From Deltaproteobacteria bacterium (GTDB lineage: Bacteria > Myxococcota > Kuafuiibacteriia > Kuafuiibacteriales > Kuafuiibacteriaceae): a stretch of 64,000 bases of DNA. Positions 9,673-15,117 of this stretch are shown here, in pieces (positions within the stretch are counted from its first letter, which is position 1; each line of letters starts with the position of its first letter). The notes beneath the pieces were generated by a model that was given only the letters and a program-made list of their open reading frames with translations, searched no databases and had not been told where the DNA came from. The translations under genes and the position numbers were made by a program. The stretch spans positions 3,086,143-3,150,142 of the forward strand of contig JADJPE010000005.1 in assembly GCA_016713425.1 (NCBI GenBank). Reading direction: 5' to 3'.

Positions 9673-12600
9673 TTATTCGAGAAAGGTTCCGATTCGGTTG
9701 GCGTGCATCAACGCGGCGGTTAGGGTGTTGGACTCTGAGATCGCGCGCTCGCGCTCGATGTTGTGGTCGAGGAGCGCCAACGCGACGCGTTGTGCGATCT
9801 CCGCGGGGCTTAGGCGCTTGCTCGGCGGCAGGTAGCCCTGCGCGGCTAAGAACGTTTCGAGCGCCTCGAGATTCTTGGTGCGAAAGCCAGGTACGCTTTT
9901 CGCCTGGAGCGCTTCGAGGAGCGGCCTTGCATCGCCGTTCGTGTGCTCAACGAGCTGCATGACCGGCTCCATGAACCTCTCCGAGACCTGTTTGGACGCT
10001 TCGATCGCCGAGGCGTCGACCGGGCGTCCTCGCCCCTGCCTCCATGCCGTTACCCAGGCCTCGGCGGCGTGCGCGCGACGTTCGAGCAGCCGCTGCTCGT
10101 TCGCGTCGAAGAAGCGCTGGTGGGCCTCGTTTTCGATCGCGCTTCGAAGCTGACCGAAGTCGCGGATTCCTAGCTCGCGCAGGCGATAGACGAGCGGGAG
10201 CTGGTCGTTCAGGAGATGAAACACGTCGATTTCGCCTTCCCTCCAGGGATCCACTTCCTGCACGCCGAGCAGCGCCGCATACACCGCGGGTGCGTGGCCG
10301 TCGGGCTTTGGGATCTCGGGCTGAGTAGGCGTGAGAAAGCGTTCAGGATCGGTCTGGGTACGATGGGCGTCTCGAAGCTCCTGCATGTCGACGATCTTCA
10401 CCGGCGTGCCTTGATGCTGCCAAAACCCAACCTCGCTGGGCTGCGCAGTGAGATAGAAGATTTGTCGGTCGTCTTCTCGAGACAGCATCTTTAGCGCCTC
10501 GACGACGGCGGCGAAACGCTCAGGGTCCGTGGTGGTGAGGGCTTCGTCGAGAAATAGCGGCAGCGGTTCGTGGCCTCTCTCGGCCTCCAGCGCGAAGGCG
10601 AGGCGAACCGCGATGAGGAGCTGCATGCGCGTGCCACTCGAGAGCTCCGAGAGCTTTCGATTCTCGTTCACTCGCGTGTCTCGCGCGAAGAAACGCCCGC
10701 GGTCCTCGGAATCGAAGCGGAGCTCGAATTCATGACGGGTGAAGCGACCGAACCACGCCCGCGCCGTCTTCAGCGACTGCGGCTGACTCGTGTCGTTGTA
10801 CTCCGCTTCGACGTCCTCGAGCAGCAGCGCACCCGCTTCGGCAGAAAGCGCTTGGTCAAAGGCCCGCTCGAGGTCCTCGATTTTCTGGGTCAGCGTTTCG
10901 CGACAGTCCTCAAGCTCTCGGCGCTTTCGGGCGATGTCCAGCTCGTGCCCGATGGCACTTATCGTTTTGGCAAGCGGATCGTATTCGTCTGCGCGCTGGC
11001 GTGTTTGATGCTCGCTCGCAAGCAGCGATGGCTCATCGTTTGCCCGCACCATCTCGAGGAGCGCCGGCCGAGACGTGAGATCGGTTTCGCGTGCGCGGAT
11101 TTCCGCTTCTGTTTCGGTGTGCTTTCGTTTCCAGTCCTTCCATTTGCCGAGCTGTTCGATCCTCCGCTCGAGGTGTTGCTCGTCGTCGACGCCGGCCTTC
11201 TCTAACAACTTCTGACGCTGATGACGAAGACGCCCGATGTCGTCGGATAGACGGGCTTGCGTCTTCTCGAGTTGTGCGAGTCGCTCTACGGTCGTCTGCT
11301 GTTCTTGTCGGCGACGCGCGAGGTCTCGCAGACACCCACCGAGCGTCGAGGAATCTGGTGCGCCCTCGGGCACCTGGACGGCGTGAGTGCGCAGGAACGA
11401 GACAAGCTGAGCTCGGGTGGCGTAGGCTTCTTGGCTGGCGCGATCGACCTGGCTTCGAAGCCGAAGCACTTCGGTGTGTGCCTCTTCATACGCCGTGACG
11501 AGCTGCGCCCAGCGAAAGAGGCCGACATCGAGCTGGGCGGTGCCGATGCCGAGCCCGCGGGCGAACGCCTCGAGCGCTTCCGTGCTCGCCTCGAGTGCGT
11601 TTCGAGCCCGTACGATCTCAGGAGCAAGGCCTCGGCGTTTCTCTGCCTCATGATTTCGCTTGATCCCGGCTTGGAGCTCCTCCTCGAGCGAACGGAGCCT
11701 TTGCTCGACGCGGTCTCGTGTCCATGTCTCGGGTGGGCTCACGTGCGTTTGCTCGAAGCGCGTCTTGGCGGTTGCTCGTTCCGTGCCGCCGGCAGGGCTC
11801 GGCCACACCAGGGCGATGCCGACGGCGACCAGGATGAGGAGCGCCCAGGCCGCGGGATGAACCAGGACACCCGCGGCCACACTGACACCCGCCGACAGCG
11901 CCGCAAGTGTAACAAGACCCATCCAGAATCTCGTGGTCGGCCGCGACGGCTCGGTCGCCGAAAGCCAGATGGCGAGCTCCCTGCGCGCGGTGTGGAGTGC
12001 ATCGAGCGAAAGCTCGGTCTCCTGGAGGTTTGCCGCCTGACGTTCGAGGTCGGCGAGCGCACGCGTGTCACCTTGGCGCTTCTCCAGCTTCTCATCCAGC
12101 GCGCGCAGGTGAGTCGGCGAGAGCGAAAGGGACGCCGTTGGCGTCGCGCCGAGCGCTGCGAGACGGTTCGAGGCGGTGGCCTCCGCCGCGCCGAGTTTCT
12201 CCGCGTAGTCACGAAGGTTGCGCTCGATGTCCCGAAGTCCACGCAGCCTCTCGCTCTCTGCATCGAGTACGCCCTGGGTCAGCGCGGCCAAGTCGAGCGT
12301 CGAATCTCGAAGTGGGTTCTCCAGCGTGTCTCGTTTTCGATTTTCGCTCGTGCGCTCGGTCTCCTTGGCTTCGAGCTCCGCATCCAAGTCTTTGAGTCGC
12401 GCGCGCTCATCTCCGTGAAGTCGATCCAGCTCCGGGAAGAACGCGCTACGTTCCTGCCGGAGCTCCTGGCGGCGGCGCTCGAGCGCGAGCAGCGACTTCG
12501 CGGCAGCGTAGGAAGGGAGTCGGTCTTTTGCCTCACGGGCGTCCGCCAGCCTCGCTTCGAGCGTCGAAAGCTCGCTTTCCCGTTCGCGAAGCTCCGCATG

Positions 12601-13110
12601 ATCCCGTTGCTTGGCTTCGAGGGCCGACTTTGCTGTGCGATACGCGTCAAACTCCGGCTTCCCGTGGTTGCGTTTGAGCGAGAACGAGTCCTTGACTGCG
12701 CGGAGATCGAACCCGCCCGCGAGCTGCCGCGAGACCTCGGCCGCAATCGCCTCCTCGGTCTTTCCTTCGGAAGACAGAAGGTCTTCGATGCGCAGCGTGT
12801 AGCACGCGAGGAACCGGTGTTCGGGAAGGCTAGGGGGACGGATCTCCGCTCCGCGCTGTGTCCATCTCAGGCTCGCACCGACCCGCTCGGCGTTGATCGA
12901 GGCGCCAGCCGCGTCGAACGTTGCCTCGAGGTCGACCGCGTCCTTCTGGCTCTCTTCGCGATAGAGGAGTGCGCGGAGGGCGCGGAGGAGACTCGATTTT
13001 CCCGAGGCGTTCGGGCCAACCACGAGGTTGATGCCGTCGGCCAAGTCTTCGACAGCCAGCGGCGTCGTCATTCCCGGGAGTCGCCGAATGTCGAGCCGTC
13101 GGAGCTTCAA
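9673..13110 (-). CDS. SbcC/Rad50-like ATPase (1145 aa) with a central hydrophobic hairpin instead of a zinc hook
   Basis: Walker A GPNASGKSSL at the N-terminus; signature LSSGTRMQ and Walker B LFLDEALTTTD at the C-terminus; long Ala/Glu/Arg/Leu-rich middle; ~45-aa hydrophobic stretch (FWMGLVTLAALSAGVSVAAGVLVHPAAWALLILVAVGIALVW); no CxxC motif seen. Confidence 0.8.
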   Translation of the reverse strand: MKLRRLDIRRLPGMTTPLAVEDLADGINLVVGPNASGKSSLLRALRALLYREESQKDAVDLEATFDAAGASINAERVGASLRWTQRGAEIRPPSLPEHRFLACYTLRIEDLLSSEGKTEEAIAAEVSRQLAGGFDLRAVKDSFSLKRNHGKPEFDAYRTAKSALEAKQRDHAELRERESELSTLEARLADAREAKDRLPSYAAAKSLLALERRRQELRQERSAFFPELDRLHGDERARLKDLDAELEAKETERTSENRKRDTLENPLRDSTLDLAALTQGVLDAESERLRGLRDIERNLRDYAEKLGAAEATASNRLAALGATPTASLSLSPTHLRALDEKLEKRQGDTRALADLERQAANLQETELSLDALHTARRELAIWLSATEPSRPTTRFWMGLVTLAALSAGVSVAAGVLVHPAAWALLILVAVGIALVWPSPAGGTERATAKTRFEQTHVSPPETWTRDRVEQRLRSLEEELQAGIKRNHEAEKRRGLAPEIVRARNALEASTEALEAFARGLGIGTAQLDVGLFRWAQLVTAYEEAHTEVLRLRSQVDRASQEAYATRAQLVSFLRTHAVQVPEGAPDSSTLGGCLRDLARRRQEQQTTVERLAQLEKTQARLSDDIGRLRHQRQKLLEKAGVDDEQHLERRIEQLGKWKDWKRKHTETEAEIRARETDLTSRPALLEMVRANDEPSLLASEHQTRQRADEYDPLAKTISAIGHELDIARKRRELEDCRETLTQKIEDLERAFDQALSAEAGALLLEDVEAEYNDTSQPQSLKTARAWFGRFTRHEFELRFDSEDRGRFFARDTRVNENRKLSELSSGTRMQLLIAVRLAFALEAERGHEPLPLFLDEALTTTDPERFAAVVEALKMLSREDDRQIFYLTAQPSEVGFWQHQGTPVKIVDMQELRDAHRTQTDPERFLTPTQPEIPKPDGHAPAVYAALLGVQEVDPWREGEIDVFHLLNDQLPLVYRLRELGIRDFGQLRSAIENEAHQRFFDANEQRLLERRAHAAEAWVTAWRQGRGRPVDASAIEASKQVSERFMEPVMQLVEHTNGDARPLLEALQAKSVPGFRTKNLEALETFLAAQGYLPPSKRLSPAEIAQRVALALLDHNIERERAISESNTLTAALMHANRIGTFLE

Positions 13111-14378: not shown

Positions 14379-14424
14379 CCGACTCCACTTACGATCGCTG
14401 GCGGAAATCCGAAAGCCTGGCGCC

Positions 14425-15117
14425 GGCCGATAGGGCAATCAATCGTCTTCGAGCCAGCATGCGTCGTCGATACCATGCCGGGAGCAGTCGGAGAACCGAC
14501 GCAGGTGTGCGACGAGTCGCATGTTGCGCGCAGTCTGGCCGGTTTGGAACGGCACAAGACGGGACTGCCGTTGAGTTCCGTAGCCTGCGCGCAGCGTTCA
14601 GACGTGCCTCTCCCCCAGCAGACGAGCCGTGCGACCGCGCGGACAAGAAGCGCCGAGGCCCGGAGCTTGGGACCTTGGGTTAGTTTGTGGAGTCGATCAG
14701 AGATCGAGGGCGAGCTGGGGGGATCTCGAGCGCACCGCTGCCGTCGCATCCGACCGAGAGCCTGCGCGACGTGACTCGATTCAGTCACCGCACCGATCGG
14801 CCTAAGTGGGCCGCCACAGCTCAAGCAGCGCTCTCCATCAATCGAATAGACGCGGGCCAACAGTTTGGCCCACGACATGCGACGTTTCTGAACCCGAGGC
14901 CTCATGTTCTCGATCGGGAAGGCGAGCTGAAGAACCGGTGCGGGCCTTGGAACAATCGCGCGCCGCAGTTTCGAGGCCGAGGCCAGAACTCCCGAATAGC
15001 GAACCTGATGCTGCGCCGGGGGAGAAACGAGCCACGCGAGGCGTCTCAGAAACTGAACCGGTGATAGAACGATCGCACGCTGGCCGTTCTTCGCTGGACG
15101 ACGAAGCGTCAGCCGAA
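14425..15117 (-). mobile_element. IS91-like 3' fragment, copy B (inverted orientation)
   Basis: Reverse-complemented terminus at 14425; homology to the tnpA 3' region up to ~15117; the terminus lies ~46 bp upstream of the SbcD-like start. Confidence 0.55.

What the first reader, a model, noticed from the sequence alone, without database searches (positions are those of the whole stretch)
9673..14438. SbcD/SbcC-like nuclease-ATPase pair whose ATPase has a membrane hairpin where a zinc hook would be
The 1145-aa ATPase has Rad50/SbcC-type head motifs (Walker A GPNASGKSSL, signature LSSGTRMQ, Walker B LFLDEALTTTD) separated by ~900 aa of coiled-coil-like sequence. I found no CxxC hook; instead there is a ~45-aa hydrophobic stretch that looks like two transmembrane helices. 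It is translationally coupled (ATGA) to a calcineurin-type phosphoesterase (GDIHLG, GNHD). An IS91-like terminus sits ~46 bp upstream of the likely GTG start, so the native promoter may have been replaced. In an IS-dense accessory region this could be a membrane-tethered Mre11/Rad50-like module with a defence or DNA-surveillance role rather than the housekeeping SbcCD.
Basis: partly seen in the sequence, partly recalled or inferred. Interest (0 to 1): 0.6.

Follow-up and report, generated by a model that had tools for sequence, protein, structure and literature searches.

The report
Membrane-hairpin SbcEF-like nuclease–ATPase pair
This is an intact two-gene DNA-end-processing module, an Mre11-type nuclease plus a Rad50-like ATPase whose coiled-coil tip is a membrane-type helical hairpin instead of a zinc hook; that hairpin is the family trait of the little-studied SbcE/SbcF (YhaN/YhaO) group, not a one-off oddity.

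Summary
Two intact, overlapping minus-strand genes encode an Mre11/SbcD-type phosphoesterase (13107-14378) and a 1145-aa Rad50/SMC-like ABC ATPase (9673-13110). The ATPase has no CxxC motif. It has a 49-residue uncharged hairpin (residues 395-443). One detail is wrong: the gene junction is TTGA, not ATGA.

The hairpin is a family trait. It is present in 86 of 87 homologues, in haloarchaeal plasmid copies, and in a syntenic Bacillaceae YhaN. The 2009 B. subtilis SbcE paper already described a CxxC-less, hydrophobic, insoluble central domain.

The nuclease is much closer to YhaO (E 8e-26) than to E. coli SbcD (E 2e-6). I therefore file the pair as a distant SbcEF-like module.

Three things are new relative to YhaN:
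- a conserved C-terminal all-helical domain of about 240 aa with no Pfam or PDB relative; its profile finds about 1,400-2,000 protein clusters;
- an invariant Gln in place of the H-loop His;
- a spread across diderm bacteria and haloarchaea.

I found no support for a defence role. Six bacterial homologue loci have unrelated, metabolic-looking neighbours. The nuclease has no PADLOC hit, and there is no phage copy.

In this window the pair lies between two inward-facing IS91 ends, next to a truncated AbiEii gene.

The parts
13107..14378 (-). Mre11/SbcD-superfamily, YhaO(SbcF)-like nuclease. It is 423 aa from the GTG at 14378; the open frame runs up to a TTG at 14438.
   Evidence: Pfam Metallophos 44 bits. 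Best PDB sequence match is T. maritima Mre11. 29% identity over 259 aa, E 8e-26, to the YhaO of a syntenic Bacillaceae locus, against E 2e-6 over 94 aa to E. coli SbcD. All metal-binding residues are invariant in 10 sequences.
9673..13110 (-). Rad50/SMC-like ABC ATPase of 1145 aa, YhaN(SbcE)-like, long form.
   Evidence: Pfam AAA_23 33 bits and AAA_27 25 bits, both above their cut-offs. Best PDB sequence match is the T. maritima Rad50 head. AlphaFold2 model has mean pLDDT 84.7, with a split head and long helices. Foldseek hits are SMC, Rad50, MukB, JetC and LmuB. 87 homologues were found.
13107..13110 (-). TTGA overlap: the TTG start of the ATPase lies over the TGA stop of the nuclease. GGGAGG sits 7 nt upstream.
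   Evidence: Sequence read. The same 4-base overlap occurs in L003, L007, L008, L010, L011, L012 and L013.
11782..11928 (-). Hydrophobic helical hairpin, residues 395-443: FWMGLVTLAALSAGVSVAAGVLV-HP-AAWALLILVAVGIALVW. It occupies the place of the zinc hook.
   Evidence: 49 residues without a charge, and 0 of 20,000 shuffles reach this. KD up to 2.3. Hessa-scale delta-G is +0.5 (19-mer) and -2.4 (17-mer), against +6.7 for the best segment elsewhere. K/R lies on both flanks and none in the turn. Present in 86 of 87 homologues. AF2 predicts helices 393-413 and 420-434 at low confidence.
12994..13017 (-). Walker A motif, GPNASGKS, residues 32-39.
   Evidence: G32, P33, N34, G37 and K38 are invariant in 87 sequences.
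10411..10743 (-). C-terminal half of the ATPase head, residues 790-900. It holds the signature LSSGTRMQ, Walker B LFLDE, D-loop D862, and Q883 where the H-loop His is expected.
   Evidence: Invariant columns. It aligns to Rad50 3qf7 residues 239-340 and to the Bacillaceae YhaN head.
9691..10323 (-). Clade-specific C-terminal all-helical domain, residues about 930-1140, of unknown fold family.
14425..15117 (-). 3' fragment (about 690 bp) of an IS91-family element, on the same strand as the operon. It ends 46 nt upstream of the GTG start.
   Evidence: Inverted-repeat arms 14425-15117 match other copies at 97%. The ORF 14375..15181 resembles the Y2 transposase C-terminus.
7121..8993 (+). IS91-family element with a frameshifted transposase. 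Its 3' end faces the operon from the other side.
   Evidence: Pfam Zn_Tnp_IS91 and Y2_Tnp. Repeat families D1-D17.
8990..9289 (+). Truncated AbiEii (nucleotidyltransferase toxin) gene fragment. It abuts the IS91 end and is convergent with the ATPase gene.
   Evidence: Pfam PF08843 55.7 bits, covering profile positions 23-120 of 238 only.

Best explanation
The two genes encode a distant, long-form member of the SbcE/SbcF (YhaN/YhaO) class of Mre11-Rad50-like complexes.

**Shown.**
- The upstream gene is a metallophosphoesterase with every Mre11-type metal ligand intact.
- The downstream gene is an ABC ATPase with a split Rad50/SMC-type head and long helical arms.
- The two genes overlap by 4 bases, here and in most of the related loci examined.
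- In place of a CxxC hook, the ATPase has two uncharged helices joined by a 2-residue His-Pro turn.
- After the head it has a conserved helical domain of about 240 aa.

**Inferred mechanism.**
- The ATPase dimerises through its ATP-bound heads and clamps DNA ends.
- The nuclease dimer sits under the heads and cuts the DNA.
- The arms fold back into an antiparallel coiled coil.
- The tip of that coiled coil is inserted into the cytoplasmic membrane as an N-in/C-in hairpin. The heads are therefore held a coiled-coil length from the membrane, and apex pairing, if any, happens in the bilayer rather than through zinc.
- The C-terminal domain probably binds DNA or the nuclease.
- The invariant Gln at the H-loop position suggests slow ATP turnover.

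**Most likely role.** By analogy with B. subtilis SbcEF, the pair processes DNA ends in double-strand-break repair or handles incoming DNA, as a second system beside any canonical SbcCD.

**Local context.** An IS91 fragment has replaced all but 46 nt of the upstream region, so transcription probably comes from within or through the IS.
For: **Family.**
- Pfam AAA_23 and AAA_27 (the domain that UniRef names 'YhaN AAA' for hit P0249) score above their cut-offs.
- One homologue is named 'uncharacterized protein YhaN' by its source.
- The nuclease scores 95 bits (E 8e-26) against the YhaO of a locus with yhaO-yhaN-yhaM-yhaL-prsA gene order, against 36 bits for E. coli SbcD.
- The ATPase scores 43 bits against that YhaN and 30 bits against SbcC.
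- PMC2811018 describes SbcE as lacking CxxC, with a central domain that is hydrophobic in its first half and insoluble, and with a conserved proline.
- The Bacillaceae YhaN shows the same two-helix uncharged hairpin.

**Hairpin.** The hairpin is among the least sequence-conserved segments (12-46% identity) while its hydrophobicity is kept. It is also present in the haloarchaeal copies.

**Architecture.** AF2 model and Foldseek hits to SMC/Rad50.

**Active sites.**

**Conserved pair.** Seen in 6 bacterial and 2 archaeal loci.
Against: - Similarity of the ATPase to a real YhaN is weak: 25% identity over 122 residues of the head. The AAA_27 match covers only the first 52 of 206 profile positions.
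- No transmembrane predictor could be run.
- AF2 confidence in the hairpin is low (pLDDT about 50), and no coordinates were available, so I could not check that the hairpin sits at the coiled-coil tip.
- The first helix is only marginally hydrophobic: Hessa delta-G +0.5 to +1.3, using a scale recalled from memory.
- The helical arms are unequal, about 234 aa against about 350 aa.
- B. subtilis SbcE-YFP was reported as foci on the nucleoid and at poles, not as a membrane stain.
- No functional data exist for this clade.
- The Firmicute synteny (yhaM, yhaL) is absent.
Confidence: 0.62

Rival explanations
1. The hydrophobic hairpin is not in the membrane. It is a buried, soluble dimerisation element: two hairpins form a four-helix bundle that replaces the zinc hook or SMC hinge. 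The complex would then be a cytoplasmic, nucleoid-associated SbcCD analogue.
For: - AF2 gives low confidence for the hairpin.
- The first helix is rich in Ala, Gly and Ser and only marginally hydrophobic on the Hessa scale.
- B. subtilis SbcE-YFP forms foci on nucleoids.
- An apex dimerisation element is what Rad50, SMC and RecN all carry at this position.
Against: - There are 49 residues with no charge, and the median count of charges within the span is 0 across 87 homologues.
- K/R is enriched on both flanks and absent from the turn.
- The sequence is among the least conserved parts of the protein while hydrophobicity is kept, which is the pattern of lipid-facing helices rather than a specific interface.
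- The weak Pfam matches of the segment are all to membrane proteins.
- The isolated SbcE central domain is insoluble.
Confidence: 0.2
2. The pair is an anti-phage or anti-plasmid defence system. A membrane-anchored Rad50/Mre11-like sentinel destroys linear or hairpin DNA as it enters the cell.
For: - In this window it lies in an IS-dense accessory region next to an AbiEii remnant.
- Haloarchaeal copies are on megaplasmids.
- SMC/Rad50-like ATPases serve in Lamassu and Wadjet, and the model resembles LmuB and JetC among other SMC-type structures.
- B. subtilis SbcE gathers at the poles of competent cells and affects transformation.
Against: - Six of six bacterial homologue loci have unrelated, metabolic-looking neighbours: HSP33, DHFR/ThyA, ABC transporters, carotenoid genes.
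- The nuclease hits no PADLOC model. The ATPase hits are generic P-loop or coiled-coil matches (best LmuB, 54 bits), with no Lamassu partner.
- No homologue was found in 50,697 phage records, and none on a bacterial plasmid among 72,556 plasmids.
- No paper describing such a system was found.
Confidence: 0.12
3. The copy in this window is a decaying passenger stranded between insertion sequences and is no longer expressed or functional.
For: - An IS91 fragment ends 46 nt upstream of the start, whereas homologues have 75-500 nt of upstream spacer.
- No sigma-70-type promoter match was found in 9300-15300.
- The neighbouring AbiEii gene is truncated.
Against: - Both reading frames are intact over 4.7 kb.
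- All invariant catalytic and nucleotide-binding residues are kept.
- Ribosome-binding sites and the 4-base overlap are kept.
- The IS fragment is on the same strand, so read-through is possible.
- The promoter scan covers only one promoter type.
Confidence: 0.06

Closest known systems
B. subtilis SbcE/SbcF (YhaN/YhaO), Krishnamurthy et al. 2010, PMC2811018
   Same: - Gene order is nuclease then ATPase.
- The ATPase has an SMC-like split head and long helical arms, and no CxxC.
- It has a central hydrophobic two-helix segment.
- The nuclease is clearly of the YhaO type (E 8e-26).
- Pfam AAA_27 scores above its cut-off.
   Different: - Only about 25% identity, confined to the ATPase head.
- An extra conserved C-terminal domain of about 240 aa makes it 1145 aa, against about 960 aa.
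- The H-loop His is replaced by an invariant Gln.
- The turn motif is His/Asn-Pro, against SQE in the Bacillaceae protein.
- There is no yhaM/yhaL synteny.
- Hosts are diderm bacteria and haloarchaea rather than Firmicutes.
Canonical SbcCD / Mre11-Rad50
   Same: - Mre11-type nuclease motifs.
- Rad50-type Walker A, signature, Walker B and D-loop.
- Coupled genes.
- Best PDB sequence matches are T. maritima Mre11 and Rad50.
   Different: - No zinc hook.
- Scores are far below the NCBIfam equivalog cut-offs: sbcd 33 against 77.65, Rad50 26 against 700.
- Only 36 and 30 bits to E. coli SbcD and SbcC.
- It has a hydrophobic hairpin and a C-terminal domain.
SMC-like defence ATPases (Lamassu LmuB, Wadjet JetC)
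   Different: No LmuA or JetABD partners. The partner here is an Mre11-type nuclease with no PADLOC match. The neighbourhoods are not defence islands.

Membership tests
Rad50/SbcC (Mre11-Rad50 type ATPase) | Split ABC head with Walker A, signature motif, Walker B and D-loop | tested here: met
   Motifs are present and invariant in 87 sequences. The Rad50 head is the best PDB sequence match.
Rad50/SbcC (Mre11-Rad50 type ATPase) | CxxC zinc hook at the coiled-coil apex | tested here: not met
   No CxxC in the protein, which has 3 Cys in all. No conserved CxxC in 87 homologues.
Rad50/SbcC (Mre11-Rad50 type ATPase) | Score above the curated family cut-offs | tested here: not met
   SbcC_Walker_B 22.9 against 27. 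NCBIfam Rad50 equivalogs score at most 26 bits against cut-offs of 700 or more.
Rad50/SbcC (Mre11-Rad50 type ATPase) | Adjacent Mre11/SbcD-type nuclease gene | tested here: met
   Metallophos gene directly upstream with a 4-base overlap. The pair is conserved in 8 other loci.
SbcE/YhaN - SbcF/YhaO | N-terminal YhaN-type AAA domain (Pfam PF13514) | tested here: met
   25.3 bits against a cut-off of 22, but only profile positions 1-52 of 206 are matched. PF13514 is also on record for several homologues.
SbcE/YhaN - SbcF/YhaO | [quoted passage not shown] | tested here: met
   Uncharged hairpin at 395-443. The same kind of hairpin is in a syntenic Bacillaceae YhaN. Described for SbcE in PMC2811018.
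SbcE/YhaN - SbcF/YhaO | Partner nuclease of the YhaO type rather than the SbcD type | tested here: met
   95 bits, E 8e-26, over 259 aa to YhaO, against 36 bits, E 2e-6, over 94 aa to E. coli SbcD.
SbcE/YhaN - SbcF/YhaO | Significant full-length similarity of the ATPase to YhaN | tested here: inconclusive
   Only the C-terminal head aligns (43 bits, E 1e-7). The rest is below significance. No full-length, uninterrupted Firmicute YhaN could be retrieved.
SbcE/YhaN - SbcF/YhaO | yhaO-yhaN-yhaM gene order | tested here: not met
   No YhaM-like (OB + HD) gene is next to the pair in the window or in 8 homologue loci. It is present in the Bacillaceae locus.
SbcE/YhaN - SbcF/YhaO | [quoted passage not shown] | not testable with these tools
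   Needs genetics. It is known only for B. subtilis.
Known anti-phage systems with SMC/ABC ATPases (Lamassu, Wadjet, PARIS, Gabija) | Specific model match for every component, plus the system's partner genes | tested here: not met
   The ATPase gives only generic hits (best LmuB, 54 bits in 2 stretches). The nuclease hits no PADLOC model. No partner genes are present in any locus.
Integral membrane protein (helical hairpin anchor) | Two hydrophobic helices long enough to span a bilayer, with a positive-inside charge pattern | tested here: inconclusive
   KD above 1.6 over 394-443. Hessa delta-G is +0.5 and -2.4. K/R flanks are 2 and 4, and the turn has 0. No dedicated predictor or experiment was available, and AF2 pLDDT is about 50.

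The most novel reading that the evidence does not exclude
This long-form clade (about 1,400-2,000 protein clusters in diderm bacteria and haloarchaea) may be a membrane-anchored Mre11-Rad50-like machine that works at the cell envelope. It could capture and process DNA ends that enter or lie at the membrane, such as phage, conjugative or transforming DNA, or membrane-tethered broken chromosome ends. In this reading the hairpin replaces the zinc hook as both anchor and apex-pairing element, and the unclassified C-terminal domain acts as the substrate or partner sensor.
Probability: 0.15. Interest if true: 0.75.

Novelty: new variant of a known kind. Interest (0 to 1): 0.4.

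Why it matters
The apex of Rad50 and SMC proteins (zinc hook or hinge) is central to how these machines bridge DNA. A large, cross-domain clade swaps the hook for what looks like a membrane hairpin. That gives a natural test of what the apex is for, and hints at DNA-end processing tied to the membrane.

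The B. subtilis founder pair has been studied only once and could not be purified. The diderm and haloarchaeal long forms add a confidently predicted extra domain and an invariant H-loop change, and both are directly testable.

For annotation, the practical point is that such pairs should not be called SbcCD, and on present evidence should not be called defence systems either.

Tried and rejected
- **Scan of 185,579 species genomes** with the ATPase alignment.
- **Viral-contig scans**. One gave a single weak N-terminal match. Neither was informative.
- **Exact look-up of the window ATPase**. It is not on record, so the source organism remains unknown.
- **Supplement of PMC2811018**, which holds the alignment of the SbcE central domain, is not held as text.
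- **afdb50 fold library** was unavailable, so the C-terminal domain was compared with PDB only.
- **Retrieving a Firmicute YhaN**. I used a bait sequence written from memory. It returned only N-terminal fragments. One of them led to a syntenic Bacillaceae locus whose yhaN is split into three ORFs. I used the concatenation for comparison, so that YhaN sequence is a reconstruction.
- **Literature searches** for a membrane-anchored Rad50/SbcC-like system or for newer work on SbcEF found nothing beyond the 2009 paper and one passing mention.
- **Promoter scan** found no sigma-70 consensus. This says little for an unknown, GC-rich host.
- **Rejected: a Lamassu-like system.** The PADLOC LmuB hit is generic and the partners are absent.

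Full report
**1. What is in the sequence**

The minus strand carries two intact ORFs. One is 13107..14438 and the other is 9673..13110, 1145 aa.

The first ORF most plausibly starts at the GTG at 14378, giving MRLLAVGDIHLG, with GGAG just upstream. That makes a 423-aa protein.

The two genes overlap by four bases. The overlap reads TTGA, a TTG start over a TGA stop, with GGGAGG seven bases upstream.

Pfam assigns Metallophos (44 bits) to the first protein. To the second it assigns AAA_23 (33 bits) and AAA_27 (25.3 bits), both above their gathering scores. SbcC_Walker_B falls just below its threshold.

NCBIfam SbcD, Mre11 and Rad50 models are hit only weakly, far below their cut-offs.

The best sequence matches among solved structures are Thermotoga maritima Mre11 for the nuclease and Rad50 for the ATPase.

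**2. The hook region**

The ATPase has three cysteines and no CxxC.

Residues 395-443 form a 49-residue run without any D, E, K or R, in a protein that is 31% charged. None of 20,000 shuffles of the protein produced a run that long; the longest was 41.

The run reads FWMGLVTLAALSAGVSVAAGVLV-HP-AAWALLILVAVGIALVW. That is two hydrophobic helices joined by a two-residue turn.

Kyte-Doolittle 19-residue averages reach 2.2-2.3.

I also applied the Hessa biological hydrophobicity scale, with values recalled from memory. The best 19-mer scores +0.5 kcal/mol and the best 17-mer scores -2.4 kcal/mol. The best segment anywhere else in the protein scores +6.7.

**3. The hairpin is a family trait**

A database search found 87 homologues, at 24-52% identity in the full alignment. 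They come from:
- Gammaproteobacteria (Thioalkalivibrio, Halospina, Aquisalimonas, Wenzhouxiangellaceae)
- Myxococcota
- Planctomycetota
- Trueperaceae
- many unnamed metagenomic bacteria

Of these, 86 have a strongly hydrophobic stretch at the same place, and none has a conserved CxxC.

Across the family:
- the span between the two helices' ends contains a median of zero charged residues;
- the 15 residues before and after carry a median of 2 and 4 Lys/Arg, and the turn carries none;
- a proline lies in the turn region in 62 of 87 sequences.

The hairpin is among the least conserved segments in sequence, at 12-46% identity, while its hydrophobicity is kept. That pattern is expected of lipid-facing helices.

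Haloarchaeal megaplasmids carry full-length relatives (27-29% identity by tblastn) with the same hairpin. Their turns read VNP or VHP.

**4. Relation to SbcE/SbcF**

The 2009 paper on B. subtilis SbcE (YhaN) makes several relevant statements (PMC2811018):
- SbcE lacks the CxxC motif.
- It has a central domain unique to its family.
- The first half of that domain is rich in hydrophobic residues, and the domain contains a conserved proline.
- The isolated domain is insoluble.
- yhaN lies downstream of yhaO, an SbcD-like gene named sbcF.

To compare sequences I needed a Firmicute YhaN. I wrote a bait sequence from memory, and it retrieved real N-terminal YhaN fragments.

One fragment lies on a 233-kb Bacillaceae contig. 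The gene order there is Metallophos (405 aa), then three consecutive ORFs of 368, 265 and 327 aa, then a YhaM-like OB+HD protein, then Spore_YhaL, then a rotamase. The upstream nuclease and downstream YhaM match the order the paper gives for yhaO-yhaN-yhaM.

The three ORFs together make a 960-aa YhaN. Its middle piece contains WQFLFMAMLFMILCGWGIA-SQE-LLLVLVGGIGLFVSILFYI, flanked by lysines. This is the same kind of hairpin.

The pairwise comparisons are:

| Window protein | Compared with | Score |
|---|---|---|
| Nuclease | Bacillaceae YhaO | 95 bits, E 8e-26, 259 aa |
| Nuclease | E. coli SbcD | 36 bits, E 2e-6, 94 aa |
| ATPase | Bacillaceae YhaN | 43 bits, E 1e-7, C-terminal head only |
| ATPase | E. 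coli SbcC | 30 bits |

One homologue is labelled 'uncharacterized protein YhaN' by its source.

I conclude that the pair belongs with SbcEF rather than SbcCD, as a distant branch. The ATPase evidence alone would be thin. The nuclease and the shared architecture carry the argument.

**5. What differs from YhaN**

*The C-terminal domain.* After the ATPase head (which ends near residue 900) there is a further stretch of about 240 residues. It is present in 84 of 86 homologues and in the haloarchaeal copies. It is absent from the 960-aa Bacillaceae protein.
- AlphaFold2 predicts it as an all-helical domain with pLDDT 93-97 in the full-length model and a mean of 91 when predicted alone.
- It matches no Pfam family.
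- A profile of this domain, searched against 1.84 billion representative proteins, finds 1,965 proteins at E <= 1e-3 and 1,412 at E <= 1e-30.
- In the best 150 hits the domain is always at the C-terminal end. The proteins are about 1,130-1,280 aa, or shorter with the domain still at their C-terminal end, which look like N-terminally truncated fragments.
- So this is a large clade with a fixed architecture.

*The H-loop.* The position where ABC ATPases carry the H-loop histidine (FFTCHEH in the Bacillaceae YhaN) is glutamine in all 87 sequences (FYLTAQP, Q883) and in the haloarchaeal copies.

**6. Architecture**

The full-length AlphaFold2 model has a mean pLDDT of 84.7. It shows:
- a high-confidence split head;
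- long helices from 151 to 384 and from 440 to 790;
- two helices at 393-413 and 420-434 with low confidence, about 50.

Foldseek matches the model to condensin Smc, Smc5/6, Rad50, MukB, JetC and LmuB.

That the hairpin sits at the tip of an antiparallel coiled coil is therefore inferred from its position between the two arms, not seen. The arms are unequal, about 234 against about 350 residues, and I cannot explain that.

**7. The nuclease**

I aligned ten sequences: the window protein, six bacterial homologues, two haloarchaeal homologues and the Bacillaceae YhaO. All Mre11-type metal ligands are invariant in them: D8, H10, D57, N92, H93, H164, H194 and H196. An active phosphodiesterase is expected.

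**8. Genomic context**

In six bacterial loci the same pair occurs, nuclease first. In five of the six the 4-base overlap is also present. The neighbours are unrelated to each other, and by their Pfam families they look metabolic or housekeeping:
- HAD hydrolase and RIO1 kinase
- a TPP enzyme and a DegP-like protease
- HSP33, DHFR and thymidylate synthase
- sugar ABC transporters and carotenoid genes
- an RND efflux pump

No third gene is conserved, and nothing there suggests a defence island.

PADLOC gives the nuclease no hit. It gives the ATPase only generic ABC/SMC hits.

Among 72,556 plasmids, only ten carry a homologue, and all ten are haloarchaeal megaplasmids. In the two I inspected, the pair lies near replication-type genes or genes of unknown function.

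No phage record carries a homologue.

**9. The window itself**

The window is dense in insertion sequences:
- eight or nine copies or fragments of one IS91-family element (Zn_Tnp_IS91 plus Y2_Tnp)
- IS110 copies
- IS66
- a Mu-like transposase
- an rve integrase

The pair sits in a 5.4-kb segment (about 8994-14424) between two IS91 ends that face each other. One is the 3' end of a full-length copy at about 8993. The other is the 3' end of a 690-bp fragment at about 14425.

The fragment is on the same strand as the operon.

Homologues have 75-500 nt of upstream spacer, so the native promoter has probably been displaced here.

A sigma-70 consensus scan found nothing in 9300-15300. This is weak evidence for an unknown GC-rich host.

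Between the other IS end and the ATPase stop lies a truncated AbiEii toxin gene. It covers Pfam positions 23-120 of 238.

Both genes of the pair are intact with all invariant residues, so I treat them as functional.

**10. Mechanism and rivals**

*Best reading (confidence 0.62).* This is an SbcEF-class Mre11-Rad50-like complex.
- ATP-driven head engagement clamps DNA ends.
- The nuclease cuts them.
- The coiled-coil tip is anchored in the cytoplasmic membrane as an N-in/C-in hairpin instead of pairing through zinc.
- The C-terminal domain adds a DNA or partner contact.
- Q883 suggests slow ATP hydrolysis.

The steps shown are the domain content, the motif integrity, the gene coupling, the properties of the hairpin and the family relations. 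Membrane insertion, complex formation, the DNA substrate and the biological role are inferred. The role rests on analogy with B. subtilis, where SbcE contributes to double-strand-break repair and transformation.

*Rivals.*
- A soluble hydrophobic dimerisation bundle rather than a membrane anchor (0.2).
- A defence system against incoming DNA (0.12).
- A stranded, silent copy (0.06).

**11. Novelty and score**

To that extent the finding is explained.

This copy belongs to a large, undescribed long-form clade with an extra domain of unknown fold, an invariant H-loop change and a distribution across diderm bacteria and haloarchaea. I found no paper on that clade. I therefore rate it a new variant of a known kind, with interest 0.4.

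The most novel reading not excluded is an envelope-associated DNA-end surveillance machine. I give it probability 0.15.

Noticed in passing
window 10462-10464 (codon of Q883 in the ATPase; motif FYLTAQP): The position of the ABC H-loop histidine is glutamine in all 87 homologues and in the haloarchaeal copies. The Bacillaceae YhaN has histidine there (FFTCHEH). This suggests altered, probably slow, ATP hydrolysis in the long-form clade.
   Followed up: partly
It has no Pfam or PDB relative. Its profile finds 1,965 cluster representatives, and in the best 150 it is always at the C-terminus of this architecture.
   Followed up: yes
window 8990-9289 (+): A truncated AbiEii (type IV toxin-antitoxin nucleotidyltransferase) gene. 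It is cut at its 5' end by the IS91 terminus, lacks its second half, and is convergent with the ATPase gene.
   Followed up: partly
window 7121-8993, 14425-15117, and copies ending near 20912, 27091, 30067, 34894, 40330, 48253, 51446: Eight or nine copies or fragments of one IS91-family element, mostly 94-100% identical to each other, lie in 64 kb. The transposase of the copy at 7334-9146 is split by frameshifts. The nuclease-ATPase pair lies between two 3' ends that face each other.
   Followed up: partly
window 18238-19467, about 24400-25650, 45579-46808; 32553-34010 and 38644-39966; 57812-59245; 2327-3673: Further mobile elements: three identical IS110-family copies, two IS66-family transposases, a Mu-like transposase and an rve integrase. 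The window is largely insertion sequences with a few cargo genes.
   Followed up: partly
L012 4688-9483 and L013 4688-9462 (haloarchaeal megaplasmids NZ_CP085333.1 and NZ_CP010531.1): The same nuclease + long ATPase pair occurs on megaplasmids of ten haloarchaeal species, with the 4-base overlap, the hairpin and the C-terminal domain. These were the only plasmid hits among 72,556 plasmids, which implies transfer between bacteria and archaea.
   Followed up: partly
L014 6001-9006 (Bacillaceae contig): The yhaN orthologue in this metagenome-assembled contig is split into three consecutive ORFs (368, 265 and 327 aa). This is either assembly frameshifts or a pseudogene. Many database 'YhaN' entries returned by the search are short N-terminal fragments.
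   Followed up: no
ATPase residues 151-384 versus 440-790 (window 11959-12660 and 10741-11793): The two helical arms flanking the hairpin are unequal, about 234 against about 350 residues. The stretch just after the hairpin carries a conserved motif (R-R-x-A ... R-F ... G ... P ... W). A juxtamembrane element or a folded-back segment may be present.
   Followed up: no
window 31237-32286 (-): An ORF with a HopBA1 / Tiki-ChaN superfamily domain (48 bits) lies among the insertion sequences.
   Followed up: no
window 15158-17391 (+): Two genes lie directly beyond the IS91 fragment. One is a 452-aa protein with a weak FlgT_N-like match. The other is a 289-aa protein with a predicted signal/anchor segment and a C-terminal hydrophobic region, and no family assignment.
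   Followed up: no
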